A DNA stretch of 64,000 nucleotides from a virus (lineage: Duplodnaviria > Caudoviricetes): the IMG/VR virus record IMGVR_UViG_3300031998_000006, positions 32,001 to 96,000 of that record; one strand, written 5' to 3'. Position 1 is the stretch's first letter. Each line of letters begins with the position of its first letter. The notes beneath the pieces were generated by a model that saw only the letters and a list, made by a program, of their open reading frames with translations, searched no databases and was not told the DNA's origin. Below are positions 316 to 42,635 of the stretch, piece after piece. Both the position numbers and the translations under genes were made by a program.

Positions 316-386
316 AGCAATAATCTAGTTAATTTTATTTAAAAATGCAAGCCATTTTTATAAAATTTAACTACATTTAGTTGTGT

Positions 387-791
387 ATGAGCAAATATGA
401 ACGATTCAACCATGCAAAAACCTTTTTGCGGTATCACCTAATTTTTTCTACAAAATATCGTAGGAAGGTTTTAAATCCTATACGGGATGACTTGTTAGAA
501 GCTATGCGGATTGCCCAAGAGAAAAACCGGAACTTCGGCATAGAGATAGACGAGGTTGACCAAGACCATATCCATCTGCTCGTCCGTATCAAGCCGAATG
601 AGTCTATCTCTAGGGTGGTACATGAGCTCAAGCAACAATCTACCTATCTAATGTGGCAAAAACACCATGATTATCTATCCAAGTTCTACTGGTCCGGTCA
701 ACACCATCTATGGACTCGTGGATATTTCGCATCTACTATAGGAGATGTTTATGAAAAAACATTGGTGGAATATATTAAAAATCAAGGTTGA
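387..791 (+). CDS. tnpA: IS200/IS605 Y1 (HUH) transposase TnpA
   Basis: YHLIFSTKYRR, HUH motif DHIHLL, LWTRGYFASTIG and C-terminal EYIKNQ (catalytic Tyr). Confidence 0.95.
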   Translation: MSKYERFNHAKTFLRYHLIFSTKYRRKVLNPIRDDLLEAMRIAQEKNRNFGIEIDEVDQDHIHLLVRIKPNESISRVVHELKQQSTYLMWQKHHDYLSKFYWSGQHHLWTRGYFASTIGDVYEKTLVEYIKNQG

Positions 792-898
792 ATGATGATT
801 AAAAAATTGATAAATTTATGTACAAGGAGTTGGTTGCGTTCATACGCCACCCTAAAGGGTGGCATCTTTCCCGTAGCCTATTGTCAAAAGGAGTTACC

Positions 899-3532: not shown

Positions 3533-3544
3533 GAGTACAACGAT

Positions 3545-5284: not shown

Positions 5285-5304
5285 CAAGGAGAAAAAAAAA
5301 GATT

Positions 5305-8384: not shown

Positions 8385-9452
8385 ATGAAAATAATTGAAG
8401 ACTATATCCCATTTAAGTGCGAAATTATAGATGACATTTCTAGGGTGGACGAGTCCGCACAGTCCGAGGTTGCCAAGTCGGGTGGCACGATTCTCGCCAT
8501 TGTGAAGGGTCCTCATTTCTGTCCCGGAAAGGTCAGCCGTAACCACAGACTTTATACGGAAGAACTCTGGGAAGCAGCAAGCAAGGATGAGGAAGTTCAG
8601 CGCAAGCTCGCCAATGGGCAGATGTTTGGTCGTGTGGGTCACGAAGCCGAAATTACCGATGAAGACATCGGGGCAGGCAACTACTCCCACATTACTCGTA
8701 ACATCGACTGGAAGACCGGCATTGCGGAATCCGTCATCTTCAACACCCCGATGGGCAATAATCTCTACACCCTTCTCCGTGCCGGTACTACCACGATGTA
8801 TGTCAGCTCCCGTGCTGACGGCGACTACTGTGGCAAGGACGAGGATGACAATGACATTCTTGACCCGAAGACCTACAAGCTGGAACGATTTGACTTTGTT
8901 CAGGACCCCGGCTTCCTTGATGCCAAGCCGAAGCTGATTTCCGAATCCAAGAAGAAAGAGGACGAAAACCTCAAGGAAACCATTGGAGAGAAGGTTGCAG
9001 AATCGCTTCTCAACCTCGCTATGGAAATCGGAGCGCCCCTTGAACTCGATGGCTCTACCTACTCTGTTGACAAGGTTTGCGAAAGCAAGGTGGATATGTC
9101 CGATTGCGAAACGATGACCAGCGATACCTACACTCTCGGCGACTTTACCGAAGTGACGGAAGATATGCGTAAGGGAATCGTTGAACATTTCAACAACCAG
9201 CAGAAGGAACTTGAGGAATCTCGCAAGGAACTTGAAGAAGCCCACAAGCTCATCAAGACCCTCCGCTTCGCCAACCGCAAGGGCTTGGACGAAGACTATG
9301 TGGAAAGACGAGTGAGTGAGGGTGCATCGCTTGAAAGCATCGAACGCGAACATCCCACTCCGCAGCCGTTCAAGGTTGTGGAAGCCAAGTTCAAGAAGGT
9401 CAACGAAGAATACGATACACTTGATTACCTGCTCGGCTTGGGCAGAAAGTGA
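8385..9452 (+). CDS. gp21: Prohead (maturation) protease, T4 gp21-like, with C-terminal extension
   Basis: SRNHRLY, FGRVGH (His), YVSSRADG (Ser) and FDFVQDPGF follow the gp21-family motif order; lies upstream of the scaffold and capsid genes. Confidence 0.85.
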   Translation: MKIIEDYIPFKCEIIDDISRVDESAQSEVAKSGGTILAIVKGPHFCPGKVSRNHRLYTEELWEAASKDEEVQRKLANGQMFGRVGHEAEITDEDIGAGNYSHITRNIDWKTGIAESVIFNTPMGNNLYTLLRAGTTTMYVSSRADGDYCGKDEDDNDILDPKTYKLERFDFVQDPGFLDAKPKLISESKKKEDENLKETIGEKVAESLLNLAMEIGAPLELDGSTYSVDKVCESKVDMSDCETMTSDTYTLGDFTEVTEDMRKGIVEHFNNQQKELEESRKELEEAHKLIKTLRFANRKGLDEDYVERRVSEGASLESIEREHPTPQPFKVVEAKFKKVNEEYDTLDYLLGLGRK

Positions 9453-11239: not shown

Positions 11240-11445
11240 GGAAACCGTCAATAAATCCCACCCATCTTTAGTGGGTGGGTTGAATTGCCCGAAAGAATAA
11301 GGTATATTATGTCTAACAATACGGGTGGAACGCCCGGAATTTACGCCGACGGAGATATTATGATACACGTTAGTGTAGCAGCCCCGGAAACCTTGCATAC
11401 TAGGATGTGTGAAACCTACACGTCTTTAGTGTGTGGGTAGTTCAT
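11240..11445 (+). mobile_element. Non-autonomous IS200/IS605 mini element (both ends plus a tnpB 3'/omegaRNA-like segment)
   Basis: Left hairpin CCCACCCA-TCTTTAG-TGGGTGGG and right end ACCTACACGTCTTTAGTGTGTGGGTAGTTCA, both resembling the ends of the 49.6-51.0 kb element. Confidence 0.75.
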
Positions 11446-11458
11446 GGAGAAAACCACT

Positions 11459-12442
11459 ATGATTATCGACAAGATTCTCGACCGCTATGATGGCGATGCC
11501 TATGACCCGGAAGACTTTTACAAGGCGATGATGTCCTACGAAGAAGGTACGGACTTTAAGATTTCTCGCGCTCTCGACAGTGGCGAGGAAGAGGACATCA
11601 AGCGTGAACTCTGTGCCTACATCGACGATGGTAACTACAATCCGAAGATTAAGGACTTCATCAATTCCGTGAAGTGGCTCGAAGCCGATGATGGCAAGGA
11701 CTACAGCAAGGAATTTGACATCCTCGGCGAATCCAAGAAGGGCGAATCCAAGTTCAAATGCTCTATGGCAAAGAAGAAGGAATCCCTCGCAAAGAAGAGC
11801 GAAGGGTTTAAGACTGATTGGCAAATGGATGTTGTCAATAGTCTGGAAACCATCAAAGATAAGTATGGTTTGGTTGTTGAATACAAGGAAATAGAGGATG
11901 GTCTTAATGGTGTTACGGATAGTTACACTGTGAAGATTAAGCGTGGACCCCTTTCGGAAATAATGGCAATCGTGGGTCCGGATTATTTGAACCTCTTCAC
12001 GGAGGATGTATCTCGCCAGTATTTATCTAAAGATTATGATTCTACAGAAGCACTTAACAAATTGGTTGATGCTATCTCGGAATATGTGAAAAAGAATGAC
12101 TGGACTAGGGAATCCAAGAAGAGCGAAGCAACTTACGATAGACCTGTGAGCCTGTATATCACCACTCGTTACGATGATGCGGAAGAGGCCCAGAATTTCA
12201 TCAAGGATATGGTTGGCGAAGAATTAACCGTGTCCAAGGACCGTAATGGGGATGCTCTGTATGTGAGTATCGAAGGTTCGGACGATGCCATTGATGCATT
12301 CCTTGAAGTTTACAAGGATGAATATGAAAACATCTTGAATGATTGCGATGTTGATGCAAACGGATGGGTTTCCCCGGATGATACTTACTACTCTTCTATT
12401 GAAGGTCGCAAGGAATTGATGGGCGAATCCACGAAGAAATAG
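11459..12442 (+). CDS. Acidic multi-module protein with ESKK linkers
   Basis: GGAG RBS and ATG at 11459. Internal GESKKGESKFKCSMAKKKESLAKKSE and RESKKSE. Confidence 0.85.
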   Translation: MIIDKILDRYDGDAYDPEDFYKAMMSYEEGTDFKISRALDSGEEEDIKRELCAYIDDGNYNPKIKDFINSVKWLEADDGKDYSKEFDILGESKKGESKFKCSMAKKKESLAKKSEGFKTDWQMDVVNSLETIKDKYGLVVEYKEIEDGLNGVTDSYTVKIKRGPLSEIMAIVGPDYLNLFTEDVSRQYLSKDYDSTEALNKLVDAISEYVKKNDWTRESKKSEATYDRPVSLYITTRYDDAEEAQNFIKDMVGEELTVSKDRNGDALYVSIEGSDDAIDAFLEVYKDEYENILNDCDVDANGWVSPDDTYYSSIEGRKELMGESTKK

Positions 12443-12514: not shown

Positions 12515-12930
12515 GTATTGCCATTTTCTTTCGTACAAAATAAATATAATAGTTTATCTAAATATATAACAATTTATCTATAACTCCATACTTGATAAAG
12601 TGTTATATTTGTCAAAAAGTGTCAATTTATTTGTGGGTTTCTTAAAATCCGCAAGTTTTTTTATTATATTATTTTGTTGGACACTAGGATTGAATCTACC
12701 GAAGTCATTAAAAATGCTCGGCTTAAAAACCGAGAATGCCCGAAACCATCGTAGATAGCAATATCTATGTAAGTTAGGGGTATCAAATAGGTTTTTAATC
12801 TAGGAGAGGATTCAAATTCCAGTTTAAAAGGGACGGCATTTTGCCGATTTCAAAAACCTACCCTTTTAGGAGAGCAATCCAAAAGATTGCTTAATGCAAA
12901 CAAAGTAACCCTAACAGGAGACCATCCATT

Positions 12931-13500
12931 ATGGTTAATACCAACCGAATCGCTGCTCGTTACGAAGCTCGTACCGCTGCTTTCCGCAAGCGTCTCGAAG
13001 CCAAACGTGCAGAAAAGAAACTCCGTGAAGAAGACGAAGGTATCATCGAAGTTGACGGCGTTAAGCTGAATGCCGCTGAAACCGAAGTCATCTTTGCTGA
13101 CGAAGACAAGGACATCCAGGTTGTCGCTTCTCCGAATCCGGAAAACGAAAACGAAGTCGTTGTCGCTGTTCTCACTGCTTCCAAGGATGATGTTGAAGAA
13201 GAAGAAGTTCTCGGCTCTGCATCCGTTGAAGGTAGCGAAGAAACCGCAGGTGCAGAAGAAGCACGAAAGGCTGAACGTCGCGAAGCATTCCGCAAGCGCC
13301 TTGAAGCCAAACGTGCAGAAGGTAAGTCCGCAACACCCGCTCGTAACGAAGCTCGTATTGCCGCTTTCCGCAAGCGCCTTGAAGCCCGTCGTGCTGGAAA
13401 GACGAGCGAATCCAAGGCTACGGCTACCGCTGACGCCCGTAAGAAGAGCATCGCAGAAGCCCGTGCCAAGTTCCGTTCCAAAATCGGCAAGAAAGCCTAA
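12931..13500 (+). CDS. Prohead core/scaffold protein
   Basis: Immediately upstream of the capsid gene; highly charged and helical; three AFRKRLEA(K/R)RA repeats. Confidence 0.7.
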   Translation: MVNTNRIAARYEARTAAFRKRLEAKRAEKKLREEDEGIIEVDGVKLNAAETEVIFADEDKDIQVVASPNPENENEVVVAVLTASKDDVEEEEVLGSASVEGSEETAGAEEARKAERREAFRKRLEAKRAEGKSATPARNEARIAAFRKRLEARRAGKTSESKATATADARKKSIAEARAKFRSKIGKKA

Positions 13501-13518
13501 ACCCGGAGGAAATCCAAA

Positions 13519-15174
13519 ATGAATAAACCTTCTATTGAAGAACTCTCCAATGCCAAGTACGACCGCATCGTAGAATCCTACGAAGCCCGTTATGGCAAGC
13601 AGTTTGAAAAACTCGCCAAGAGCCAGTCTTTCAAGGGCAGCTTGAGCAAGAACGATATGTTCAACCTCGGCGCTCAACTCGACAACTACAAGAAGTACGA
13701 AAGCTATGTCGCTGAAAATTCCTCGGCTTCCAGCCTTGGTGTCCTTCCGCGTGTTGCTCTCGACCTCATCTCCGCAACTTACGCCCTCTCCATCGCTCCG
13801 CAGCTTGCATCCGTGCAGACTTTGGACGAAGCCCAGGGTCTTATCTACTTCAAGAAGACTTTCACTCACGGCTATCCGTTGACCGCACAGAATGGTCTTC
13901 CGGCTCTTCCGGAAGAACGCTGGATGGGTGCAGACGGCAAGTTTGAAGGTGAACAGTCCTTCAATGGTGCTTGGAAGAAGTGGCTTGACTCTCGTCCGCG
14001 TCCGGCAACGGGTGCTGGCGACACTCTCACTCCGGAAACTCTTACCGCCAAGAACTTTGATGCCATTACCTTCAATGCCTTGAAGGGTTGGCAGTCTTCT
14101 CCGACCGGCTATATGAGCGAACGCCAGTTCGTGGCTGTTGACGGCGACACCGCCACCATCAAGTATGGTGTTGGCAACCTCCGCTGGAACACCCCGATTA
14201 ACATTCGCCTTGTTGCACCGGATGGTAAGGTGGAAGACATCGTTGGTCTTACCGCTGGTCCGGGTCAGCTCCCGACCTTCTACGGCAAGGTTGCTGTGAC
14301 CGCAGCCCAGAGCGGTAAGGACATCGTTCTCTCTGGCTTCAATGGCTACCAGGGTATGGTTGCCTATGATGTTGACTTTGAAAAGGCACCGGACGTTCCG
14401 GCTATTGAATACGGTCTCGACACGAAGGTTGTCAGCGCCGAAATCATTGGCTTGAAGGAAATGCTCGGTACTTTCAAGAGCTTCCAGTTCAACAAGCGCT
14501 TCGGTAAGGCTGCTTCCGATGAAGTCCTCGCTGACCTCACTGGTCACATGGCTATGGCTGAATCCGAAAAGGTTCTCGCCGCCTATGTCCAGTCCGCTAA
14601 CAAGTGGGCTCCGCTCACTTGGGATTTGAACAAGCCGAATACCATCTCCGAATACGAACATCGTCAGTCCTTCCTCTATGTCATCCAGGCTGCTTCTGCC
14701 GCCATCGGCGCTCGTGCAGGCAAGGGCTATGCTAACAAGATTGTTGCCGGTTATGTTGCTTGCCAGTACATCGCTTCCCTTCCGGGCTTCCGTCCTGCTC
14801 CGCAGACGAACCTCGTTGGTCCGCACGTGTATGGCACTCTCGAAAACGAAGGTATCACGGTTATTCGTAGCAACACCATCGTTGCACCGAACGAAGTTAT
14901 CTGTGCTTACAGCTCCGACAACTCCCCGTTCGAAGCTCCGGTTGTTTGCGCTACCTATATGCCGGTGTTCCTTACCGACACTATGCCGGTTGCCGATAAT
15001 CCGTTCCAGACCCAGCGTGCAATCGCTTCTTGGAAGGCTATCGAACCGGTGGTTGCTGAATTTGTTCAGCGCATCGTGATTACGAAGAACACTGCCCCGG
15101 CTGCGGATGCCTATGTGTATCTTACCAGCAATCCGGGTAATGGCTCTTCCAACGGTGGTAGCGGTAACGGCTAA
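13519..15174 (+). CDS. gp23: Major capsid protein, T4 gp23-like
   Basis: LASVQTL...GLIYF, GKGYANKIVA and EAPVVCATYMP match gp23-family motifs; strong high-expression codon bias; GGAGG RBS. Confidence 0.9.
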   Translation: MNKPSIEELSNAKYDRIVESYEARYGKQFEKLAKSQSFKGSLSKNDMFNLGAQLDNYKKYESYVAENSSASSLGVLPRVALDLISATYALSIAPQLASVQTLDEAQGLIYFKKTFTHGYPLTAQNGLPALPEERWMGADGKFEGEQSFNGAWKKWLDSRPRPATGAGDTLTPETLTAKNFDAITFNALKGWQSSPTGYMSERQFVAVDGDTATIKYGVGNLRWNTPINIRLVAPDGKVEDIVGLTAGPGQLPTFYGKVAVTAAQSGKDIVLSGFNGYQGMVAYDVDFEKAPDVPAIEYGLDTKVVSAEIIGLKEMLGTFKSFQFNKRFGKAASDEVLADLTGHMAMAESEKVLAAYVQSANKWAPLTWDLNKPNTISEYEHRQSFLYVIQAASAAIGARAGKGYANKIVAGYVACQYIASLPGFRPAPQTNLVGPHVYGTLENEGITVIRSNTIVAPNEVICAYSSDNSPFEAPVVCATYMPVFLTDTMPVADNPFQTQRAIASWKAIEPVVAEFVQRIVITKNTAPAADAYVYLTSNPGNGSSNGGSGNG

Positions 15175-21302: not shown

Positions 21303-23186
21303 ATGGCTTTGAGAATTAACAATCACACGAAGGATTTTGCCGGTAAATTGCACGAATCCAAGAAGTCCGAGGGCAAGTGGGAAATCACTCCGCAAGAAAT
21401 GAATAACAAGTTCTTGCCGTTTCTTGGTAATCAAGTGGTGGCTACTCGTATTACCTCTCCGTCGCAGATTCCGGGCTACAATGCTCCGTTCAACATCGAC
21501 AAGCATTCTACCTATTACCTCATTGAACCGAATCCCGATTTCAATAGGGGTGCGAATAAGAATGTTCGTTCCGTCATTGTTGGATGGCAGGGCGATTCTA
21601 ACAAGGAATGGGTAATCCGTGTATATCCTACGGCTGACAAGTCGAAGGGTCAGTGGGATTGGAGTAATATGCCCATTGATGACGATGCAGCCGATTGGAG
21701 AGATGCGGCACGATATGTCACTAATTTGGTATTGAACGATTCAAAGAAGGAATCTACTATGACTGCACACAAGTTTGGCAACAAGTCCGAATCTTCCCGC
21801 TATGGTAGCGGTATGGCTACTCGTAAGGATTTCTCCAAGACTCGTAATCTTGGCGACATCCTTGAAGTCCTTGAATCCCACCGCAAATTGCTCAAGGCGG
21901 CTGCCGAGGATATGAACCAGAGCAAGGCTGACTTGAAGGATGCCATCAAGCGTCTTAACGAGTTTGAAAAGAATGCGGACTTCCTCAAGCAACAGTCCGT
22001 GAAGGGCATCAAGAAAGCGATAGCGGTCAAGAACTCCCCGGAAGTCCAGGCTTCGGGCGAAGTCATCGACGCTCTCAAGAGTGTCATTTCCATCATTGCG
22101 GCTGATTATGCTAACATCCCCGATGTCAAGCAGCTTATGACCGTCATAGACAGCCGATATGCCACTCGTGGTAGCCAGATTCTCACAACCCTTGAAGGTC
22201 AGGTTTCCCGTGCTATTGAAGTGGATATGAAGACCCTCCAGAACAGCATCGACAATGGCGATGTTGCCGAAGACGACATTATGAAGTTCGTGACCACCAC
22301 TACCATCACTCATGGCGTACAGAGCAAGAGCGTGGTGGAAAATGTCACTCCGGTCCTGGAACGAATGAATGCGATGATTGAAGCATCCTCCAAGATGCAG
22401 GAAGCCGTTATCGACCCGAAGGAGTTTAAGGAACTTCGTGACCTCGTGGAACAGATTGTGAAGGAAGCATCCGCTCCGAAGGACACCTTCCGTACATCCA
22501 TTGTTGCACTCGACAAGGACACTATCGCATCCGTCAAGACTGAATCCAAGATTGTTGAAGGTCTGCTCGACAAGCTCAAGTCCGTAGTGTCCGCAATCAA
22601 GGACAAGATTTCCGCTTTGTGGGATTCCTTCACTTCTCTCTTCTTTAGCGTGGAAGACGAAGCCCTTGAATCCGCTGACGTGTTCAACGAAGTGGAAGTT
22701 AGCCTTGCCATTGTTGGTATCGAGGTTCCGTCCGCTCCGAAGACTGAAAGCCTTGGTAAGCAGTTTGAAGTTCTTACGAAGTCTGTGCTTCACTGTTGCG
22801 ATAAGCTCGTCAAGGACGCTTCTCTCGCAGGAGAGTTCGACGACGAAGTTATATATGCGGAAGATGCGGTTAAGAATGCCGTTGAATCTTTCAAGAACCT
22901 CGGCAATGCTTGCAAGTCCTTGAAGTCCGTCCTCTCCTATCACAAGAACGAAGACAATATGAATGTCATCGGAATCTTGGCTGATGCCATCACGCAGATT
23001 GTTGCTGACGATGCTGGCGAAGAAGGTGGCGAGGGTAGCGAAGGTGGCGATGGCGAAGTTGGTGGCGAATCCGTCCTTGACCAGATTGAGAACGAATACT
23101 CCCCGGCTGGTGGCGAAGAGAACGAAGAACCCGAAGCTAATGCCGCACCCAACCCGGCTGAAATGGGAACTCCCGAAGAGTTCTAG
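21303..23186 (+). CDS. Large coiled-coil head-region protein with N-terminal LHESKKSE
   Basis: AAGGAG RBS; ESKKSE at 21354; long helical central region; acidic Gly/Glu tail. Confidence 0.85.
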   Translation: MALRINNHTKDFAGKLHESKKSEGKWEITPQEMNNKFLPFLGNQVVATRITSPSQIPGYNAPFNIDKHSTYYLIEPNPDFNRGANKNVRSVIVGWQGDSNKEWVIRVYPTADKSKGQWDWSNMPIDDDAADWRDAARYVTNLVLNDSKKESTMTAHKFGNKSESSRYGSGMATRKDFSKTRNLGDILEVLESHRKLLKAAAEDMNQSKADLKDAIKRLNEFEKNADFLKQQSVKGIKKAIAVKNSPEVQASGEVIDALKSVISIIAADYANIPDVKQLMTVIDSRYATRGSQILTTLEGQVSRAIEVDMKTLQNSIDNGDVAEDDIMKFVTTTTITHGVQSKSVVENVTPVLERMNAMIEASSKMQEAVIDPKEFKELRDLVEQIVKEASAPKDTFRTSIVALDKDTIASVKTESKIVEGLLDKLKSVVSAIKDKISALWDSFTSLFFSVEDEALESADVFNEVEVSLAIVGIEVPSAPKTESLGKQFEVLTKSVLHCCDKLVKDASLAGEFDDEVIYAEDAVKNAVESFKNLGNACKSLKSVLSYHKNEDNMNVIGILADAITQIVADDAGEEGGEGSEGGDGEVGGESVLDQIENEYSPAGGEENEEPEANAAPNPAEMGTPEEF

Positions 23187-23311
23187 TAGTTTACCTATTG
23201 GTCAACGTGGGGTGCGGGGGCAGTAATGCTTCCGCACCTTGTTATACACGGGCATCCGTGTATATATTATGAGGACAACCACAGATTCACAATCAGCGAT
23301 GAGGTAATATC

Positions 23312-23479
23312 GTGGTAACATTGGAAGAAAAGGTTAAGGAACTTTACAATTCCTTGAAGGCTCCATGTAAGGAGAAAGGTCTTTGTTTAGCCTGGGAAGT
23401 TCATAAAGCCTTGAATAAGTTTCGGAAGGAACATCCCGACCTCGACGAAAAGTGGTCGAGGGAAGCCTACGGCTTATAG
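23312..23479 (+). CDS. Small hypothetical protein (55 aa)
   Basis: GAGG RBS and GTG start; MVTLEEKVKELYNSLKAPCKEKGLCLAWEVHKALNKFRKEHPDLDEKWSREAYGL. Confidence 0.5.
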   Translation: MVTLEEKVKELYNSLKAPCKEKGLCLAWEVHKALNKFRKEHPDLDEKWSREAYGL

Positions 23480-23661
23480 CCCAAGCACTTGATAATTTAT
23501 TATATACCCATATATGCATACACCGAAAATTTCAAAATTAAATCGGATGGGTGGTATTAGCATATAGGGAGTACATAGTAATTTTTTTATTAAAATAAGT
23601 CCAAGCCTATTGCAAGCATAGTAATAATTATGTACATTTGTTACTGAACACGGGTGAAAGT

Positions 23662-24873
23662 ATGTGTACACTAACTTATAATGCAGAATTGCAATTTAAG
23701 GATAGCGAAGCCTTGGAGTATTGGTTGGGTTTACTTAATGCATCTAGGCTTGCTTATAATACTTGTGCTAAAATACTTTTTTCCAAGAAGATACACTTGG
23801 ACTTGAAATCTGTTCATAATGCGGTGTATTATACTTTACGAGAACAGTTCCCTATAATTCCATCTCAAGGTATTATAAAAATATATAAGGAATGTATTTC
23901 TGCATTTCGTGCAATCAATTCAAATGGGCATATAGGACATAAGATTCCTGAAAAGACGAATTGTTCAATGCGTCTGGATAAACGTTTGTACTCTAAGATG
24001 AGTATTGATGGTATAACTTTATGTTCTAGGAAATTAAATCATAGGGTTATTGCTACATTGGTTAAGTTTCCTAGGTTGGTTGAATTATTCAAGCAATATC
24101 CTACTCGCGACCCTCTAATTTTCAAGCGGGGTAATACCTTCTATCTGTCTATCCCATTTGAAGTACCCGAGATACCCCAGCACGATGATACTTGTATCGG
24201 CATTGATATGGGAGAACGAAGGTTTGCAATCACATCCGATGGGCTGATGTTCAACGATAAGGAGTATAATACCCGAAGGAGAAAGATTCGTTACTTGAAG
24301 CGATGCTTGCAGAAGAAAGGAACGAAATCTGCCAATAGGCATAAGCGTAAGCTGTCCCATAAGGAACAGAACCAGTCCACTGATATATGTAACCACATTG
24401 CCAATGCTATCATTGCCAGCACTACTGCAAGCATCATAGTTCTTGAAGACTTGAGCAACATCAAGAAAAATACATCCCATTCCAAGGAAGGATTCAAGAA
24501 GAAATCCCACAACCGTAGGATTTCCCAAATACCATTTTACAAGTTTAAACAGATATTGTCATACAAGGCACTACTCCACGGAAAACGGGTAGAAACAGTT
24601 TCTCCATTTATGACAAGCCAAGTTGATTGCACAACCAACAAGAAAGAAGGTACTCGCAAGAACCGTAGGTTCTACTGCAAGAATGGTACTGTACTTGATT
24701 CCGATTGGAATGCGGCAATCAACATCGCTCGGAAGAGCAAACATCCCTTCTCGTTCTCGATACCCTATGACGGGGCTTTGAGAACCTGGAGGGCAGGGTG
24801 CAAGTCAACCACCCAATCGTACTGTAAGCCTATCGTGGAAACACAGATAGCATTACAAGCTCGCACCTTTTAG
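23662..24873 (+). CDS. tnpB: TnpB RNA-guided nuclease family
   Basis: CIGIDMGE, VLEDL and LDSDWNAAINIA (RuvC D-E-D intact). Right-end hairpin ending in TTGAC at 24885-24889. Confidence 0.92.
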   Translation: MCTLTYNAELQFKDSEALEYWLGLLNASRLAYNTCAKILFSKKIHLDLKSVHNAVYYTLREQFPIIPSQGIIKIYKECISAFRAINSNGHIGHKIPEKTNCSMRLDKRLYSKMSIDGITLCSRKLNHRVIATLVKFPRLVELFKQYPTRDPLIFKRGNTFYLSIPFEVPEIPQHDDTCIGIDMGERRFAITSDGLMFNDKEYNTRRRKIRYLKRCLQKKGTKSANRHKRKLSHKEQNQSTDICNHIANAIIASTTASIIVLEDLSNIKKNTSHSKEGFKKKSHNRRISQIPFYKFKQILSYKALLHGKRVETVSPFMTSQVDCTTNKKEGTRKNRRFYCKNGTVLDSDWNAAINIARKSKHPFSFSIPYDGALRTWRAGCKSTTQSYCKPIVETQIALQARTF

Positions 24874-25221
24874 GGCGTGAGCGGTTGACCGAAAATGCAA
24901 AGTTTATGTTATTGTCGAATTTATTTGTTTGTAATGTATGGTGTTGACGATTTGAGATAATATAGTTGTGGTGTAGGGAGTTTACTTATAGAATATGCTG
25001 GCGGTTTTTATTACCTTCTATGCTTATTTATCGAGTACCACTTGATAATTTGTTATATAAGTAGATAATTTGTTAGATAACTAGATAATTTATTATATTT
25101 AGTTTGTACAAACTAGCGAACCATATACATTTTCAAATTAACGAAACTCCGTTGTTTTTGCATCGGGTTTTTTTATTTATATTTAAACTGTTGCAACAAA
25201 AATAAAAGGAGTATTCCTCAA

Positions 25222-26409
25222 ATGAATTTTACCGAAAATGCAAAGTCTAAATTCTGGGCGGATTTGTCTGCCGGGGTAAAGAAGACCTTTGGTCATTCTC
25301 TGGGCGAAGCATTCCACATTGACCAGTTCAAGAGCGGTCGCTTCTCCTTCACGGAATCTATTGTCAACGGTTCCGGAAATGTTACTCGTCTTATGGATAG
25401 TATCAAGGCATCTTCTCCCGTCATTGAATCCGTCCGTATGACTCCGATTACCAACGGCTACAATGCTACCTACAATGTGTCCGTGGCATTCGACCCTATT
25501 AAGGCTGAATCCGTGTATAGCAATGGCAAGACCGCCATGGCTACTGTGGATATGGACGGCAAGAAGTATGTTGTTGACAACGATGGTAATGTTGTCAAGC
25601 AGGTTGCAGATGACAAGGAAGCCGATGACTTCATCAACAACTTGAATAAGTCCACCAAGTCCAATCTCAAGAAGGAAGAATTGGAAAATGGTAATACACA
25701 ACCGGTGGATGAAGATGGTTTCCCTATCAACCTTGACGATGTGATTGCCCTCGCAAACGAAGCGCTTGATGGTACTGGTGTTTCCGTTTCCAAGGAAGAT
25801 GACCGCTTGCTTCTCAAGGGCGATTCGGAATTGCTCCGTCCGGCACAGGAATATCTCCCCGCTCCGTATTACGGTTCCGATGCCATTGAAGGTGGCTACA
25901 ACGATGCCACGGGCGACCTTGAAGCAACTATTCCGGATTATCCGAGTTGCTATGACCTCGAAGTTCTCCGCAAGTTCCTCATTGATGCCGTGAACTGCAT
26001 CATTGACAACACCCTCTGCAATAACGGTACTTGCGAAGACGACGAATGGGTTTCCGCTATGGCAGAAGCCGAACCGGACGAAAGCTATGTGACCAAGTAC
26101 GGCTACAAGGGCGAATCCTTTGTTGGCAGCAACAAGAAGGAAATTGCAACCCTCATCAAGTCGCTTATGGTCGAAAATATCGACGAAGCCCGTAAGGTTG
26201 CAGGACACTTTATGGGCAAGGAAATGGTTGAAGGGTTTGTCCGCAAGTATTCGTTTGTGGGCAAGGTGGCAGAAAAGCGAAATGTCATTCTTCCGGACGA
26301 AATGTCCGCTCTCGACCGCATCCACGAATCCGCTATGGGTCGCGCCCCGGAAAAGCGAGTGGATATGGAATCCCTCGTGAACAAGAACCTTTTTAACAAG
26401 GAGAAGTAA
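25222..26409 (+). CDS. Hypothetical virion-region protein, first gene of the tail operon
   Basis: AAGGAG RBS; high-expression codon bias; directly upstream of the sheath gene. Confidence 0.85.
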   Translation: MNFTENAKSKFWADLSAGVKKTFGHSLGEAFHIDQFKSGRFSFTESIVNGSGNVTRLMDSIKASSPVIESVRMTPITNGYNATYNVSVAFDPIKAESVYSNGKTAMATVDMDGKKYVVDNDGNVVKQVADDKEADDFINNLNKSTKSNLKKEELENGNTQPVDEDGFPINLDDVIALANEALDGTGVSVSKEDDRLLLKGDSELLRPAQEYLPAPYYGSDAIEGGYNDATGDLEATIPDYPSCYDLEVLRKFLIDAVNCIIDNTLCNNGTCEDDEWVSAMAEAEPDESYVTKYGYKGESFVGSNKKEIATLIKSLMVENIDEARKVAGHFMGKEMVEGFVRKYSFVGKVAEKRNVILPDEMSALDRIHESAMGRAPEKRVDMESLVNKNLFNKEK

Positions 26410-26412
26410 CCT

Positions 26413-28698
26413 ATGCCTATCAATGACTCCGCTGGCGTTGGCGTTTACTTGATTGACAAGTCGCAACGAGCTTCTGTTGCTATCGGATTCCGTTCTGCGG
26501 GTGCGATTGAAGCCGACAGAGGTCTTTGCAATACTCCCACTTTGATTTCCAGTGAAGCGGACTATGTTAAGACTTTTGGTACTCCGAATATGGAACGCCA
26601 CGGTCTTGCCGCTATGGAAGCCTATATGCTTGCACAGAGGAAAGTTCCGCAAGTTCTTACTCGTGCCAAGGACCCCGAATTGACGGACAACGAAACCGTC
26701 TTTGGGGCTATGAAGTTTACCGTTGAGGGTGGCAAGCTGATTGTGGACACCCAGACTCCGGCATCCAAGATTGCCACTCCCGATGACAATACCTCCGTGT
26801 TGTTCTTCAAGGGCGAGGGCGATTATTGTGCCAAGGACAACCAGAACATCGTTGTCCGTTTCAGTCAGCCCCTTACCCAGTCCGCTTATGCCAAGGACGG
26901 AAGGTCTTTCCAGGTGCAGGTGTTTGATTTCGACGGTGCTAACCACATCGACCAAGACGAAGTTGGCGAATTTGCTTTCAACCCGGATGTTGCATCCCTC
27001 ATCTCCCCGTCTGGCGAGTTCCAGTTGGAAGGTTATGAAGTTGGCGGTGGCTCGGGTAGCGATGCCGGTGGCGAAGGTCAGCACCCTGTTACCATTACCG
27101 CATTCGTGAACGGACGAATCGGTAAGGACATCTTTGATTACAGTGCCTTGAACGATGGTGGTACCGCATTTGGTCTGTTCGACCATTTCGCCAAGGCTAT
27201 CACGGATGCCAAGCTCGCTACTGGCGAAAAGGTTGTCAAGGATGCTTGGCTCGACTACATCCCTTACAGTTCTAGCCTTGACGCCGGTTCGGGTTCGGAA
27301 GCCGAAGACCCGTATGGCTACTATGTGCTTGACTCCCGTGAAGACGAAGAAACTGGCGAACGTGGCGACCAGTTCCCGCAACAGCTTAACTGCTTCGGTT
27401 TGTCCGTGACCCTTACCGCTAATGTGGAACTCCCGATTAGCGAAAAGGACCCGAGCAACCCGAACTACCGCAAGCTGACCCGTGGCTTCTATAGCTTCCC
27501 GTGTGGTAGCGTGACGGTTTCCAATAAGGATGGTGCTTGGTTTGCCAAGTTCAGCATCAGCACCAATCTGTATCTCAAGAATCGTACCGCTTATATGTAT
27601 ATGGGCAAGCAGAACGAATACTGGGCATCGTACTACAGTGCATATTGCAAGGAAACTTTCAATGTGAGTATGTCCTACGATGACTTCGACCCGAACTATG
27701 TGTCGATGCAGGCTGATGCCGTTCTCGGTAGTTCTCGTTACCTTGTTCCGAAGACTAGCGAAACTTTCAGCGATTACAAGATTGACTACGATAAGGACCG
27801 CCTTACCACGAAGTTGCAATACTTCACGGGCGAAATCGTAGCTAACTCCATCCGTGTGCAGAACAAGTCCTATGCCTACTCGCAGGCATTGGTTGGCTTG
27901 CTTGGCGACAACCTCACTCGTTGGCGTTGCCTTGCCACTCCGAACCTCGGCGATGTGATGAACCCGGCTGACTTCCTCTCCGCAATTACCGCTGCGGAAG
28001 AATCCACCTTGGGTCTTTCCAACATTGGTCGTGCCGCATCTACGGATGTGTTCGGCAACCTCACGGGCCGTCACGGAAACCGCTTCATCGCTGACTACTC
28101 GCAGTATGCATACCGCACCCTCGCTGGCAAGCGTACCGCTGTTACCTTGGCTTGCTTGGTGTCCGACTTGCTCAACACCCACTACAATGAAGGTATTGAA
28201 GCCCGTCCTCCGTTCGGCTACAACTACGGACAGATTTCTTGCTTGAAGCTCTCGCAGGAGTTCTCCGGTGCTGAAAGAAATATGCTTGCTCGTCAGCTCA
28301 AGATTAACCCTGTCATTGAGGATGGTGGTTACTTTATCTGGGACGAACGCACTAGCCAGTTGACGGACACCTCGCTTTCCGACATCCATTGCATCATTTC
28401 GTTTATCTGGATGAAGTTTGCAATCTACGATGCGATGAAAGCATTCGTGGCTGAATACAATGACCAGTCCACGGTTAATCGTGGTCTTGCGGTCTTGAAC
28501 CAGTTGAACCAGACTTTCATCAGCCGTAACTACATTGAAGAAGGTATTGTCAATGCCGATAACAACGTCATTGGTGACGAAGTTCTCCGCTTCGACTATG
28601 CCGTTCGCTTCAAGGGTGTTGCACGCTTTGTGGATGTCTATATTACCGCATACAGCCAGACTCAAACCTTGGCTGTGTCGCTTGCACAGGAGGCTTAA
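26413..28698 (+). CDS. gp18: Contractile tail sheath protein (gp18-like)
   Basis: N-terminal GVYLIDKS and LISSEADYVKTFGTP; C-terminal PPFGYNYG, ERNML...KINPV, IWDERT and FVAEYND. Confidence 0.88.
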   Translation: MPINDSAGVGVYLIDKSQRASVAIGFRSAGAIEADRGLCNTPTLISSEADYVKTFGTPNMERHGLAAMEAYMLAQRKVPQVLTRAKDPELTDNETVFGAMKFTVEGGKLIVDTQTPASKIATPDDNTSVLFFKGEGDYCAKDNQNIVVRFSQPLTQSAYAKDGRSFQVQVFDFDGANHIDQDEVGEFAFNPDVASLISPSGEFQLEGYEVGGGSGSDAGGEGQHPVTITAFVNGRIGKDIFDYSALNDGGTAFGLFDHFAKAITDAKLATGEKVVKDAWLDYIPYSSSLDAGSGSEAEDPYGYYVLDSREDEETGERGDQFPQQLNCFGLSVTLTANVELPISEKDPSNPNYRKLTRGFYSFPCGSVTVSNKDGAWFAKFSISTNLYLKNRTAYMYMGKQNEYWASYYSAYCKETFNVSMSYDDFDPNYVSMQADAVLGSSRYLVPKTSETFSDYKIDYDKDRLTTKLQYFTGEIVANSIRVQNKSYAYSQALVGLLGDNLTRWRCLATPNLGDVMNPADFLSAITAAEESTLGLSNIGRAASTDVFGNLTGRHGNRFIADYSQYAYRTLAGKRTAVTLACLVSDLLNTHYNEGIEARPPFGYNYGQISCLKLSQEFSGAERNMLARQLKINPVIEDGGYFIWDERTSQLTDTSLSDIHCIISFIWMKFAIYDAMKAFVAEYNDQSTVNRGLAVLNQLNQTFISRNYIEEGIVNADNNVIGDEVLRFDYAVRFKGVARFVDVYITAYSQTQTLAVSLAQEA

Positions 28699-28701
28699 AC
28701 T

Positions 28702-29286
28702 ATGCCGGAAAACATTACTCTCATGGAATTGCTCGGCAAGGAGTTCAAGGAAGCTGACTATATGGTTTCGTCCAACTGGCGTATCGACTTTAGTGCCTGC
28801 AAGGAATTGAAGGAACTGATGGGCGAATATGCCGGGGACACTCCAAAGCAGATGTCTTTCGCTTGCCATTCCAACTTCCAGTTTGAAACGAACATTGAAT
28901 ATGCGGAAGCTGAAATCAAGGGTATGCACATCTCGCAAGCCGCTTGGCAGGACCGCTATATTGACTCGCTCACGCTTGATGTCTATGAAAAGATGGACCA
29001 CCGTCTTTTCAAGGCTCTCGTGACCGCATCTAACAACACCGCAGGCTACTATGCATCTCGTGACATCAACAAGAAGGAAAAGTACACCTTCTCCGGTATC
29101 ACGCTCCGTGCATTGGGCAACACCGATGGTGGCGATACCGCTACTGTTGAACTTGTCTATAGTCTTCTCGGTGTGCAGATTAAGCGAGTTCAGTCGCCGG
29201 AATACACTTCGGATTCCGCTGAAATCGGCTCTGTGCAGCTTGAACTCAAGGCACACGGCTGGGGTATTATCAACGGCACAACCTAA
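28702..29286 (+). CDS. Tail tube protein (putative)
   Basis: 194 aa, directly after the sheath gene, with a beta-rich pattern (LTLDVYE, VQLEL). Confidence 0.7.
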   Translation: MPENITLMELLGKEFKEADYMVSSNWRIDFSACKELKELMGEYAGDTPKQMSFACHSNFQFETNIEYAEAEIKGMHISQAAWQDRYIDSLTLDVYEKMDHRLFKALVTASNNTAGYYASRDINKKEKYTFSGITLRALGNTDGGDTATVELVYSLLGVQIKRVQSPEYTSDSAEIGSVQLELKAHGWGIINGTT

Positions 29287-29306
29287 TCCGTTGGCTCGGT
29301 AATTCA

Positions 29307-29343
29307 AAATCCCCTAATCCGTCAAGTGGATTGGGGGATTTTT
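29307..29343 (+). terminator. Rho-independent terminator
   Basis: AAAATCCCC...GGGGATTTTT hairpin. Confidence 0.75.
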
Positions 29344-29798: not shown

Positions 29799-30545
29799 AT
29801 GATTATACCCGTAAACAAGCTCCCTTCCAACTTCAAGCCTTATCCGTTTAAGTCCTTCAAGTTGAAAGCGATGAATCTGCAACAGGCTATCGACTTGGGA
29901 AAATCCCCTAGTCTGGTGGATGTCCGAAACTTGATACAGAAACTCGTGGACGATGAAATCGACGCGAAGATTCTTGTTCCGGTGGATGTGAAGTATATCC
30001 TGGCGATGCTCTCGTTCCACGCCTACCCGAAGATGTCTTGGACACTCAATCTTGAATGTCCGCATTGCAAGGACAAGCATAAGAGGGCAATCACTATGAA
30101 GGATTTCCCTCCGGTCCCGAGTCTTTCGGACGATGACCCCTATCCGCTAACGATTGACGATGAAACCCACGTGTGGAAGCTGGGCTACTGCTCCGTTGAG
30201 GACTGGGACCAGATGGTGTCCAAGCTGAACATCGGCAAGGACACCCAGATTGAAGACCTTGACCCAGCAATGTACATCGACATCATCGCACCCTATGTGC
30301 TTTCCGTTGACGATAGCACGGAGAATATCCGTGAGAAGTTGCTGAACATCGAGGATTTCAATGTCCTTAACTTGATGCTTGAAGCAATCAAGACCTACTT
30401 CCTCGATGACACGGAAGCCGAATTTGAATGCCCCAAGTGCAAGAAGAAATATAGCGTGGCTTTGAGTGCCGTGGAGGTCACTCAATACACCCCGTTTCTT
30501 GACAAGAAAGCGGTTAGCAGATATAAGGTTAATTTTAGGATTTGA
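29799..30545 (+). CDS. Baseplate hub / tail assembly chaperone (T4 gp26-like)
   Basis: KLPSNFKPY, DVKYILAML, CPHC and CPKC motifs; precedes the tape-measure-like gene. Confidence 0.65.
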   Translation: MIIPVNKLPSNFKPYPFKSFKLKAMNLQQAIDLGKSPSLVDVRNLIQKLVDDEIDAKILVPVDVKYILAMLSFHAYPKMSWTLNLECPHCKDKHKRAITMKDFPPVPSLSDDDPYPLTIDDETHVWKLGYCSVEDWDQMVSKLNIGKDTQIEDLDPAMYIDIIAPYVLSVDDSTENIREKLLNIEDFNVLNLMLEAIKTYFLDDTEAEFECPKCKKKYSVALSAVEVTQYTPFLDKKAVSRYKVNFRI

Positions 30546-41275: not shown

Positions 41276-41288
41276 TACTAGAGTTTAC

Positions 41289-42635
41289 ACAAAAAATATA
41301 CAAGGTAGATGCCACCTTTTAAGGTAACATGGGAATTGGTGAAATTAGCCCTTGACAATGCTAGGCAATTATTATATATTTACCCATAGGTGTATATGAA
41401 ACATACGGAACTCTACATAACCTACAATGCTGAAATGGTATTCCCTAATAACGAATGCCGTTCTCACTTTATGGAGTTGTTAGAGCAGGCCCGTGATGCT
41501 TATAATGAATGTGCCAAGATTATTTATGATAATAGCATTCCGTTGGACATCAAGAGCGTCCATAATGCGGTGTATTCCCACATCCGTAGTTCATATTCTA
41601 AACTCACATCCAACGCCGTAATAGCACTCTATAGGGATGTGATGGGTGCTATCCGTAGCATCAAGTCCAACAAACACGAAAATGCTAGGATTCCCGAAAA
41701 GACTCATCTAAATCATAAACTGAACAGATATTTATACAAGCACTTGACGGCAGAGGGTATTTGGCTGACTACGAACACCAAGAGAATCCGTAGCCACATC
41801 ACATTCAAGACATACCCCCGCTTACAAGAGATGTTCCAGAAATATGTTCCGGGCGACCCCACTATCTTCTTACGAGATGGCAGGTTCTATATGTCCATTC
41901 CATTCAAGGTACCGGAAATCCCTCTACAGAACGATACCTGTATTGGTGTGGATATGGGTGAGCGTAGGTTCGCAATCACATCCGATGGGCTGATGCTCAA
42001 CGATAAGGAATATAACGCTAGACGCAGAAAGATTCGTTACTTAAAGCGATGCTTGCAGAAGAAGAGTACAAAGTCTGCTAACCGACATCAATACAAGCTG
42101 TCTAGGAAAGAACAGAACCAGTCCACTAATATATGTAACCACATTGCCAATGCAATTATCCACAGCACTTCTGCAAGTATCATAGTCATTGAAGACTTGA
42201 GTAACATCAAGAAATGCACATCTAAATCCAAAGAAGGTTTAAAGACGAAATCTCATAACCGTAGGATTTCGCAGATACCTTTCTACAAGTTTAAACAGAT
42301 ATTGTCATACAAGGCACTACTCCACGGAAAGCGAGTAGAAACGGTTTCTCCATTTATGACAAGCCAAACTGATTGCACAACCGGAAAGAAAGATGGTATT
42401 CGTAAGAACCGTAGGTTCTATTGTGCCAATGGCATCATACTAGATTCGGATTGGAATGCGGCAATCAACATCGCTCGGAAGAGCAAACATCCCTTCTCGT
42501 TCTCTATTCCTTATGACGGGGCTTTGAGAACCTGGAGGGCAGGGTGCAAGTCAACCACCCAATCGTACTGTAAGCCTATCGTGGAAACACAGATAGCATT
42601 ACAAGCTCACACCTTTTAGGGCGTGGGTAGTTGAC
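41289..42635 (+). mobile_element. IS1341-like (tnpB-only) element
   Basis: Preceded by TTTAC (41284-41288). Left-end-like GATGCCACCTTTTAAGGT, related to the tnpA element's hairpin. Right end CACACCTTTTAGGGCGTGGGTAGTTGAC. Confidence 0.7.
41396..42619 (+). CDS. tnpB: TnpB RNA-guided nuclease family
   Basis: CIGVDMGE, VIEDL and LDSDWNAAINIA; C-terminal half nearly identical to the 23662 copy. Confidence 0.92.
   Translation: MKHTELYITYNAEMVFPNNECRSHFMELLEQARDAYNECAKIIYDNSIPLDIKSVHNAVYSHIRSSYSKLTSNAVIALYRDVMGAIRSIKSNKHENARIPEKTHLNHKLNRYLYKHLTAEGIWLTTNTKRIRSHITFKTYPRLQEMFQKYVPGDPTIFLRDGRFYMSIPFKVPEIPLQNDTCIGVDMGERRFAITSDGLMLNDKEYNARRRKIRYLKRCLQKKSTKSANRHQYKLSRKEQNQSTNICNHIANAIIHSTSASIIVIEDLSNIKKCTSKSKEGLKTKSHNRRISQIPFYKFKQILSYKALLHGKRVETVSPFMTSQTDCTTGKKDGIRKNRRFYCANGIILDSDWNAAINIARKSKHPFSFSIPYDGALRTWRAGCKSTTQSYCKPIVETQIALQAHTF

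What the first reader, a model, noticed from the sequence alone, without database searches (positions are those of the whole stretch)
23662..25249. TnpB whose predicted guide matches the start of the phage's own tail operon (possible domesticated RNA-guided regulator)
Seen: right after the right-end TTGAC (24885-24889) the sequence reads CGAAAATGCAAAGTTTA (24890-24906). Codons 4-10 of ORF 25222 read TTTAC|CGAAAATGCAAAGTCTA (25228-25249), which is 14 contiguous matches and 16/17 overall; similarity then stops. TTTAC also precedes the left end of the sister element (41284), making it a plausible TAM. I could not find the sister's left-end hairpin upstream of this copy. Known: TnpB guides come from the ~16-20 nt flanking the right end, and TnpB-derived TldRs repress transcription. 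Inference: this is an immobilised TnpB retargeted to bind the first tail-operon gene. The RuvC D-E-D residues are intact, so the short or mismatched guide may allow binding without cutting.
Basis: partly seen in the sequence, partly recalled or inferred. Interest (0 to 1): 0.82.

Follow-up and report, generated by a model that had tools for sequence, protein, structure and literature searches.

The report
Immobile phage TnpB aimed at neighbour gene
A transposon-derived RNA-guided nuclease gene in a large rumen phage has lost its left end, and its built-in guide still matches the first codons of the gene next door because the element once inserted into a copy of that gene's start; whether the phage uses this is open.

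Summary
The 17 nt after the right end (24890-24906) match 25233-25249 at 16/17. The target follows TTTAC. This is the only match with 2 or fewer mismatches in the 215-kb phage genome, and the chance of it within 350 bp is about 3e-6.

It is homology by descent, not retargeting. Similarity continues weakly for 21 more nt (13/21), starts at the base after a TAM-type pentamer, and shares four derived bases with this phage's own gene. That is what a canonical IS605-type insertion into a copy of the gene start leaves behind.

None of five related phages has the cassette. Copy 1 lacks the left-end hairpin, but keeps an open frame, D-E-D, a covarying omegaRNA scaffold and a phage-type promoter.

The guide block has decayed less than the adjacent relic (1/17 vs 8/21 changes, p about 0.03). 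Contigs from two other samples bridge parts of the cassette.

"Binding without cutting" is not supported. The TAM-proximal match is 14 nt, the one mismatch is an rU:dG wobble at position 15, and published TnpBs cut with about 12 bp.

Best reading: an immobilised, probably cleavage-competent TnpB-omegaRNA relic. Adaptive use (competition or regulation) is possible but unshown.

The parts
23486..23506 (+). Promoter-like motif P' (CACTTGATAATTTATTATATA) upstream of tnpB copy 1. With 25039-25059 it forms a 20/21 direct repeat that brackets the insert.
   Evidence: These are the only two copies of this TTG...ATATA variant in the genome. The related ext-10-like motifs stand before other genes.
23507..23661 (+). 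Leader of tnpB copy 1. It is phage-type leader-like sequence joined to the last roughly 22-100 nt of the element's internal 5' region. There is no left-end hairpin and no TAM junction.
   Evidence: identity with relatives is clear only from about 23641; no left-end hairpin; no inverted repeat; it resembles the leader of gene X and, more strongly, a leader at genome position 213391-213490.
23662..24873 (+). tnpB copy 1 (403 aa from the ATG at 23662; the frame is open from TTG 23638). The RuvC D-E-D is intact. The Zn-finger CxxC pairs are absent, as in the whole clade.
24710..24889 (+). omegaRNA scaffold overlapping the 3' end of tnpB. It ends at the right-end boundary GTTGAC.
   Evidence: 11 sequences, 39 predicted pairs, 9 of them with compensatory changes. 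Conservation ends at column 180, which is 24889.
24890..24906 (+). Predicted guide (the first 17 nt after the right end).
24907..24927 (+). Decayed remainder of the relic of gene X's start (corresponds to codons 10-16).
   Evidence: 13/21 identical. The changes lie on the relic side and run mostly GC to AT.
24928..25038 (+). 111-nt AT-rich spacer of unknown origin.
   Evidence: no match in the genome or in any fetched locus; 6/33 against gene X.
25039..25099 (+). Three tandem promoter-like motifs of gene X.
   Evidence: the same triple array stands in all 5 related phages.
25100..25221 (+). 5' leader of gene X, with a hairpin, a T-run and the ribosome-binding region.
   Evidence: a hairpin stands at the same place in the relatives, with different stem sequences.
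25228..25249 (+). TAM-like TTTAC (25228-25232) plus the 17-nt target (25233-25249), on the coding strand of gene X, codons 3-10.
25222..26409 (+). Gene X (395 aa, function unknown), directly upstream of the tail sheath gene 26413-28698.
   Evidence: It has no Pfam or PHROG family. AF2 mean pLDDT is 63 and Foldseek found no PDB hit at E<=1e-3.
41284..42635 (+). Sister element (copy 2): TTTAC 41284-41288, left end from 41289, tnpB 41390-42619, right end at 42635. Its left-end hairpin has two stem-breaking bases compared with L032.
381..866 (.). Y1 transposase TnpA (381-791, + strand) with a perfect cognate left-end hairpin on the minus strand (843-866). This is the potential trans-mobiliser.

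Best explanation
This is an immobilised IS200/IS605-family TnpB-omegaRNA cassette.

Origin (largely shown): the element once inserted in the canonical way, directly 3' of a TTYAC motif, into a copy of the first codons of the neighbouring gene X. Its right-end flank, which becomes the omegaRNA guide, is therefore codons 4-9 of X. Later the left-end hairpin and the upstream junction were lost and replaced by a phage-type promoter and leader. The cassette now sits between the small upstream gene and X's own promoter array, 343 bp from an intact copy of its target.

Present working (inferred): the TnpB protein, from copy 1 or from the near-identical 3' half of copy 2, loads the omegaRNA. The complex recognises TTTAC plus 14-17 nt on the coding strand. 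By analogy with studied TnpBs it is expected to cut about 15-21 nt downstream, in codons 9-11 of X. It would do so in this phage's own genomes and in co-infecting relatives that carry the same start sequence. Breaks would be mended by recombination among replicating phage genomes.

I judge the match to be mainly an inherited by-product. About 45% it is neutral. About 35-40% it is now used, more likely as a nuclease in inter-phage competition or recombination than as a repressor.
For: - Homology begins exactly at the base after the right end, and after TTTAC in X.
- It runs for 38 nt: 16/17, then 13/21, with P(13 or more) = 3e-4.
- Four positions are shared between relic and own X but differ in all 4 distinct relatives, so the relic was copied from this lineage's X.
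- 7 of the 9 mismatches polarise to the relic side, 2 are ambiguous and 0 fall on X.
- 5 of 5 related phages have small gene, then three promoter motifs, then leader, then X, with no cassette.
- The insert is bracketed by a 20/21 direct repeat.
- The left-end hairpin is absent.
- D-E-D is intact.
- Copy 1 has 4 private changes at otherwise invariant columns, against 0-11 in the nine relatives.
- C-half dN/dS is 0.09-0.14.
- The omegaRNA scaffold is intact, with 9 of 39 pairs covarying.
- Seed length exceeds the roughly 12 bp that ISDra2 TnpB needs to cut (PMC10097598).
- The cassette is not an assembly artefact. An X4 contig bridges 24793-25236, and X5 contigs cover 24811-25138 and 23339-23988.
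Against: - A cleavage-competent nuclease aimed at an intact site in its own genome should be counter-selected. Yet TAM, seed and guide are all kept, while the adjacent relic changed at 8 of 21 positions. This argues either for no activity or for a tolerated or useful activity, and I cannot tell which.
- The TAM preference of this TnpB is inferred only from 11 left flanks. TTCAC dominates (7 of 11) and TTTAC occurs once.
- The omegaRNA 3' end is unmapped.
- The Zn-finger cysteine pairs are missing in the whole clade, so nuclease activity is assumed, not shown.
- The history of the left side is unresolved. The leader resembles another locus (score 32.2) more than X's leader (26.7). The 111-nt spacer has no source.
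- No second genome with the same junction could be read base by base.
Confidence: 0.55

Rival explanations
1. Selfish or competitive nuclease. The fixed guide is kept because the complex cuts the start of X in co-infecting related phages. Repair from the cassette-bearing genome then co-converts the nearby cassette, or simply disadvantages the rival. This is the logic of free-standing homing endonucleases of T4-like phages (that comparison is recalled, not from a call).
For: - The guide block is better kept than the neighbouring relic: 1/17 vs 8/21 changes, Fisher p=0.026, hypergeometric 0.023.
- 3 of 5 related loci (L007, L008, L009) carry TTTAC plus a perfect 13-nt seed. L008 and L009 are identical in the stretch shown.
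- The target lies 343 bp from the cassette.
- The nuclease triad and scaffold are intact.
- The cassette persists in contigs of two other samples.
Against: - The phage's own site is the best match of all (16/17 with a wobble, against 15/17 in L007 and L008). There is no visible self-immunity and so no asymmetry to drive spread.
- 0 of 5 relatives has acquired the cassette.
- L006 and L010 have two seed mismatches.
- p of about 0.03 from one locus is weak.
Confidence: 0.22
2. One reading: a domesticated RNA-guided regulator. The complex binds codons 4-10 of X without cutting and acts as a roadblock that tunes the tail operon.
For: - The cassette is immobile and has its own phage-type promoter.
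- The guide is better kept than its flank.
- The guide pairs with the template strand inside the first 30 nt of the gene.
- Wild-type TnpB can bind without cutting when pairing is short, at 10 nt (PMC13507860).
- Phage-encoded TnpB-derived repressors exist (bioRxiv 10.1101/2023.11.30.569447).
Against: - RuvC D-E-D is intact, and the protein is as conserved as in mobile copies.
- Pairing is 14 nt contiguous, or 17 counting the wobble. That is above the roughly 12 bp sufficient for cutting in ISDra2 and at the length where ISDge10 still makes indels.
- The target is in coding sequence, about 130-190 nt downstream of the promoter motifs, not on a promoter as in TldR.
- There is no conserved association: 0 of 5 relatives of X have it, and 0 of 36 other TnpB loci show a guide-like match at the right end within 3 kb.
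Confidence: 0.12
3. Pure neutral relic of a recent accident. The guide matches only because too little time has passed, and the complex is not made or not active.
For: - Origin by descent is shown.
- The 3' half of copy 1 is 80-92% identical to copy 2, against 48-53% in the 5' half. Gene conversion could therefore keep the scaffold intact without selection.
- The sister's left-end hairpin is also damaged, which suggests a decaying family in this genome.
- Only a weak trace appears in an RNA library: one 235-nt contig over 23664-23898, which could be DNA carry-over.
Against: - It is not recent. The adjoining 21 nt of the same relic have 8 changes and the following sequence is unrecognisable.
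- Over that time, the unconverted 5' half of the ORF (GC 34%, synonymous sites saturated) stayed open. Copy 1 has only 4 private changes at invariant columns across the whole protein.
- The promoter motif is kept at 20/21.
Confidence: 0.3

Closest known systems
Canonical IS200/IS605 TnpB-omegaRNA (OMEGA) elements such as ISDra2 (PMC10097598, passages read; element biology otherwise recalled)
   Same: - A TnpB with a RuvC triad.
- An omegaRNA scaffold overlapping the 3' end of the gene.
- A guide equal to the DNA flanking the right end.
- A target equal to a 5-nt motif plus that flank.
- A Y1 TnpA with a matching hairpin in the same genome.
   Different: - Copy 1 has no left end, so it cannot be excised. 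The usual purpose of the guide (re-cutting the emptied donor site) therefore no longer applies.
- An intact 'empty-site' copy of its target sits 343 bp away in cis, inside a conserved structural-module gene.
- The Zn-finger cysteine pairs are missing clade-wide.
TldR, TnpB-like nuclease-dead repressors, some prophage-encoded (bioRxiv 10.1101/2023.11.30.569447, passages read)
   Same: - TnpB-derived and no longer mobile.
- Phage-borne.
- A fixed guide with a TAM-flanked genomic target.
   Different: - The TldR RuvC is inactivated or truncated; here it is intact.
- TldR targets overlap promoters of host genes; here the target is the phage's own coding sequence.
- TldR loci are conserved with their partner genes across genomes; here 0 of 5 relatives have the cassette.
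- fliC_P carries TAM and seed mutations that prevent self-targeting; here the self site is the best match.
Guide-length switching of wild-type TnpB between binding and cutting (ISDge10; PMC13507860, abstract and passages read)
   Same: It shows that a nuclease-intact TnpB can act as a binder only.
   Different: That needs about 10 nt of pairing. Here 14 contiguous nt (17 with the wobble) are available unless the RNA is trimmed shorter, which is untested.
Free-standing homing endonucleases of T4-like phages (recalled from general knowledge; no call)
   Same: A nuclease gene sits a few hundred bp from the site it recognises in related phage genomes, inside a conserved module.
   Different: - Recognition is RNA-guided.
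- No protecting polymorphism is seen in the carrier's own site.
- No evidence of spread to the relatives sampled.

Membership tests
IS200/IS605 TnpB-omegaRNA element | TnpB protein with OrfB_IS605/TNB domains and a RuvC D-E-D | tested here: met
   PF07282 scores E 1.4e-15. PF01385 scores 28.9 bits, just under its 30.5 cut-off. D, E and D align to the ISDra2 TnpB chain and an AI-designed relative, and are invariant in 10 of 10 clade members aligned (L016 dropped because my frame finder failed on it).
IS200/IS605 TnpB-omegaRNA element | Structured omegaRNA scaffold ending at the right-end boundary, followed by a variable guide | tested here: met
   11 sequences and 39 pairs, of which 9 have both-side changes. 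All 11 are identical in GTTGAC and unrelated after it. There is no Rfam family match.
IS200/IS605 TnpB-omegaRNA element | Left end with subterminal hairpin abutting the TAM | tested here: not met
   Absent upstream of copy 1. It is present in 9 relatives and in the TnpA element. In copy 2 it is damaged.
IS200/IS605 TnpB-omegaRNA element | Y1 transposase available (in cis or in trans) | tested here: met
   PF01797, E 5.7e-31, at 381-791, with a cognate hairpin at 843-866. It is in trans only.
IS200/IS605 TnpB-omegaRNA element | CxxC...CxxC zinc finger in the TNB domain | tested here: not met
   There is one Cys where each pair is expected, in all 10 clade members.
IS200/IS605 TnpB-omegaRNA element | RNA-guided, TAM-dependent DNA cleavage | not testable with these tools
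   Needs biochemistry or an interference assay.
TldR (nuclease-dead TnpB-derived repressor) | Inactivated or truncated RuvC | tested here: not met
   D-E-D is intact and the protein is full length.
TldR (nuclease-dead TnpB-derived repressor) | Guide complementary to a TAM-flanked site overlapping a promoter | tested here: not met
   A TAM-like flank is present, but the site is codons 4-9 of the coding sequence, downstream of the promoter motifs.
TldR (nuclease-dead TnpB-derived repressor) | Conserved association with the regulated or partner gene across genomes | tested here: not met
   0 of 5 loci with a relative of X carry the cassette. No other record has the same junction: 0 of 32 pattern hits have the scaffold upstream, and a second pattern gave 0 hits. 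Near-identical strains in two other samples do carry it.
Homing-endonuclease-like drive | Recognition site present in related genomes that lack the nuclease gene | tested here: met
   L007, L008 and L009 have TTTAC plus a 13-nt seed. L006 and L010 have TTCAC but 2 seed mismatches.
Homing-endonuclease-like drive | Carrier's own site protected | tested here: not met
   The phage's own site matches at 16/17, and the one mismatch is a wobble.

The most novel reading that the evidence does not exclude
A virus has fixed a nuclease-intact TnpB-omegaRNA unit, stripped of its transposon left end and given a phage promoter. Its hard-wired guide is kept by selection on the first codons of the phage's own tail-module gene. 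It would serve either as a site-specific break or recombination device and weapon against sibling phages, or as a cutting-restrained regulator. This would be a step between a selfish OMEGA element and a dedicated single-guide system, distinct from the nuclease-dead TldR route.
Probability: 0.2. Interest if true: 0.8.

Novelty: new variant of a known kind. Interest (0 to 1): 0.5.

Why it matters
TnpB is the ancestor of Cas12. The known exits from selfish life are CRISPR association and nuclease-dead repressors.

This cassette is a naturally immobilised but catalytically intact TnpB. Its frozen guide faces an intact, TAM-flanked copy of its target in the same small genome. That makes it a clean natural test case for three questions:
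- How are such complexes tolerated?
- Do they drive gene conversion between phages?
- Can regulation arise before the nuclease dies?

It is also a caution for annotation. A guide-to-neighbour match can arise automatically from the insertion history and is not by itself evidence of domestication.

In my searches of the paper library I found no description of a nuclease-intact TnpB whose guide matches its own phage's structural gene. These were term searches, not exhaustive, and supplements were not consulted.

Tried and rejected
- Chance match: rejected.
- Assembly artefact: rejected, because contigs from other samples bridge the junctions.
- GenBank phage relatives: none by megablast of 22800-26500 or by tblastn of X.
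- Same right-end/guide junction elsewhere: 1 viral and 31 metagenome pattern hits. 0 of these 32 has the omegaRNA hairpin upstream, so all are chance. A second pattern from the right end gave 0 viral hits.
- Strain covariation of guide and target: not obtained. The one read-laying run printed only the best-supported differences (307 were not shown), so I cannot say whether 24890-24906 varies in X4 or X5. The absence of listed differences there is not evidence. RNA run X22 gave one contig over 23664-23898 and none over the scaffold or guide. This shows nothing about the omegaRNA.
- Empty site of copy 2 in relatives, to confirm TTTAC as an insertion motif: only 1 of 4 records held the upstream gene, and its downstream region is unrelated. 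Inconclusive.
- A third copy of the gene start upstream of tnpB (23522-23543): not significant, score 22 against shuffles of 18.9 +/- 2.5.
- A simple tandem duplication of X's promoter, leader and start as the full history: not established. The left leader is more like another locus, and the 111-nt spacer has no source.
- Recurrence. Within 3 kb, 37 TnpB loci were scanned. Of one search's 38 loci, 33 were used: L015, L021, L023 and L038 were dropped as duplicates and L019 as truncated. Four of the 5 own-genome loci were added; L005 was dropped. Only copy 1 has a run of matches at its right end. The other loci gave isolated single 15-mers. L046 has a repeated palindromic terminator-like 19-mer. 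Within the genome, none of the other right ends has a guide-like match with 2 or fewer mismatches next to a TAM-like motif; those ends are copy 2 plus 6 of a second family. One search was an over-verbose first version of this scan.
- Identity of X: no Pfam or PHROG family. No Atlas lead. The AF2 model has mean pLDDT 63 and pTM 0.32. Foldseek against the PDB gave 0 hits at E<=1e-3.
- Rfam: no family.
- Relaxed selection on copy 1: not seen. There is only a modest excess in distance to outgroups in the N-half, 0.36-0.41 against 0.28-0.36. N-half dS was saturated and not computable.
- Supplementary files of papers were not consulted. Mismatch-tolerance figures were read only through main text and legends.
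Full report
**Setting**

The window is bases 32001-96000 of a 215,310-bp IMG/VR virus record with five TnpB-like matches. The region is the structural module:
- head maturation protease, 8385-9452
- major head protein, 13519-15174
- gene X, 25222-26409, no family
- tail sheath, 26413-28698, phrog_23, E 1.3e-17
- baseplate hub, 29799-30545

GenBank phages hold nothing similar. Public runs that hold the stretch are bovine gut metagenomes.

**Observation**

The right end finishes GGTTGAC at 24889. The next 17 nt match 25233-25249 at 16/17, and TTTAC precedes the target. This is the only site in the genome with 2 or fewer mismatches. Its chance expectation is 3e-6 within 350 bp and 7e-9 with TTYAC in front.

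The boundary is secure. The sister copy and nine related IMG/VR copies are conserved through GTTGAC and unrelated afterwards. The last 180 nt fold into a conserved scaffold, with 9 of 39 pairs showing compensatory changes.

The family's left flank is TTCAC in 7 of 11 elements. CTCAC, TTTAC (the sister), AATAC and TTGAC (the TnpA element) occur once each. TTTAC is therefore a plausible TAM but not the commonest form.

**What the match is**

The similarity does not stop at 17 nt. The next 21 nt are 13/21 identical, with a background probability of 13 or more of 3e-4. After that, identity falls to 6/33. The right-end flank is therefore a 38-nt relic of codons 4-16 of X, starting exactly at the base after the TAM-type pentamer. 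That is the signature of an ordinary IS605-type insertion into a copy of the start of X.

The relic came from this lineage. At four positions the relic and the phage's own X agree against all four distinct relatives. 7 of the 9 relic-versus-X differences are changes on the relic side, 2 are ambiguous and none fall on the X side. Most run GC to AT.

All five loci with a relative of X (64-70% aa identity) show small gene, three promoter-like motifs, leader hairpin and then X, with no cassette. In the window, about 1.55 kb is inserted there, bracketed by a 20/21 direct repeat of the first promoter motif.

Read directly: the right end's last letters give TTG ACC GAA... in X's frame. An insertion at this site could therefore have left X translatable from TTG. 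This is inference only.

**State of the cassette**

- Copy 1 has no left-end hairpin. A cognate Y1 TnpA with a perfect hairpin lies at 381-866. Copy 1 cannot be excised.
- Upstream it carries a phage-type promoter motif and a leader. The leader resembles X's leader (score 26.7, 0 of 300 shuffles reach it; without the motif 17.3, 5 of 500). It resembles another leader at genome 213391-213490 even more (score 32.2). The left-side history is therefore unresolved.
- The 111 nt between the relic and X's promoters match nothing.
- The ORF is open and D-E-D is present. Private changes at invariant columns number 4, against 0-11 in relatives. C-half dN/dS is 0.09-0.14.
- The Zn-finger cysteine pairs are missing in the whole clade.
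- Identity to copy 2 rises from about 50% in the 5' half to 92% at the right end. The 5' half is unusually AT-rich: 34% GC, against 47% for the window. This suggests gene conversion or scaffold constraint at the 3' end, and long residence.

**Is the match used?**

For:
- Within one relic, the 17-nt guide block has 1 change and the next 21 nt have 8 (Fisher p=0.026, hypergeometric 0.023).
- The promoter motif is likewise kept, at 20/21.
- Contigs from two other samples and studies cover the cassette. X4 covers 24793-25236 with 20 differences and 3 gaps. X5 covers 24811-25000 with 3 differences, 24987-25138 with 6, and 23339-23988 with 5.

Against:
- The statistic is modest and comes from a single locus.
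- No relative has the cassette.
- No other TnpB locus examined shows the arrangement.
- I could not read the guide in the other strains, because one search lists only the best-supported differences.

**Cutting or binding?**

The single mismatch (position 15) puts guide U opposite target-strand G, which is a wobble. ISDra2 TnpB needs about 12 TAM-proximal bp and still cuts with double mismatches at positions 13-16 (PMC10097598). ISDge10 loses cutting only as the guide falls from 14 to 10 nt (PMC13507860). The proposed 'binding without cutting' therefore does not follow from the sequence. It would need RNA trimming or another restraint.

TldR membership fails on the intact RuvC, the non-promoter target and the lack of a conserved association (for the defining features).

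A homing-like role fits the geometry and the presence of the site in L007-L009. It lacks self-protection, because the phage's own site is the best match.

**Verdict**

It is wrong on mechanism of origin, because the guide is inherited rather than retargeted. It is unsupported on mode of action.

The best explanation is an immobilised, probably cleavage-competent TnpB-omegaRNA relic whose guide-target pair is a by-product of insertion history. There is a real but unproven possibility (about 35-40%) that the pair is now maintained, more likely for nuclease-based competition or recombination than for repression.

I class it as a new variant of a known kind, of moderate interest.

Noticed in passing
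window 381-866: An IS200-like unit: a Y1 transposase (136 aa) on the + strand, with a perfect left-end hairpin on the minus strand at 843-866. The hairpin is flanked by TTGAC and overlaps the annotated start of ORF 818-1768.
   Followed up: partly
window 11253-11286, 11411-11444, 50998-51031 (further copies outside the window at genome 31032, 112970, 118415, 132933): A second family of IS605-type right ends: a hairpin followed by GTGGGTAGTTCA. At least six copies are in the genome, some without an adjacent tnpB. The end at 11444 supplies the A of the ATG of ORF 11444-12442, so these elements sit exactly at gene starts.
   Followed up: partly
window 6489-8240: A 583-aa ORF whose C-terminal part matches the TnpB-type 'transposase' PHROG 506 (E 5e-24). 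This is a further TnpB-like gene inside the head module, not found by the search with copy 1.
   Followed up: no
window 41289-41340: The sister copy's left-end hairpin reads GCCACC...GGTAAC, where its nearest relative L032 has GCCACC...GGTGGC. Two stem pairs are broken and no inverted repeat is detected. Copy 2 may also be losing mobility.
   Followed up: partly
window 24151-24889 vs 41900-42635: Identity between the two tnpB copies climbs from about 50% (5' half) to 92% (last 240 nt). This suggests gene conversion or strong omegaRNA constraint. Copy 1's 5' half is only 34% GC.
   Followed up: partly
window 34941, 38266, 43624, 46359, 51084: Five copies of a 49-nt promoter-like block, which reads as TTGACA, then 17 nt, then TATATT, with conserved upstream TTTTACGAAA. 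The tail-gene motifs look like the spacer-plus-extended-minus-10 part of the same design.
   Followed up: no
window 25100-25221 and L006-L010 just upstream of position 5001: Between the promoter motifs and the start of X, every relative has a hairpin followed by a T-run, at the same place but with different stem sequences. It looks like a terminator or attenuator inside the leader. The simple scan did not flag the window's copy.
   Followed up: no
window 25183-29307 (minus strand), also 3377-5287, 12850-14826, 21741-22943: Very long antisense open frames (up to 1374 aa) shadow the structural genes. They are probably a codon-usage effect rather than genes.
   Followed up: no
window 5304, 5591, 9459, 10453, 10854, 19745; and 6013, 11743, 18068, 57290: Repeated gene starts (ATG TCC AAA TTG ACC ATC AAG-like) and a repeated KCSMQKKKESL-like coding motif occur in several head-module genes. 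They suggest paralogous small proteins or shared processing motifs.
   Followed up: no
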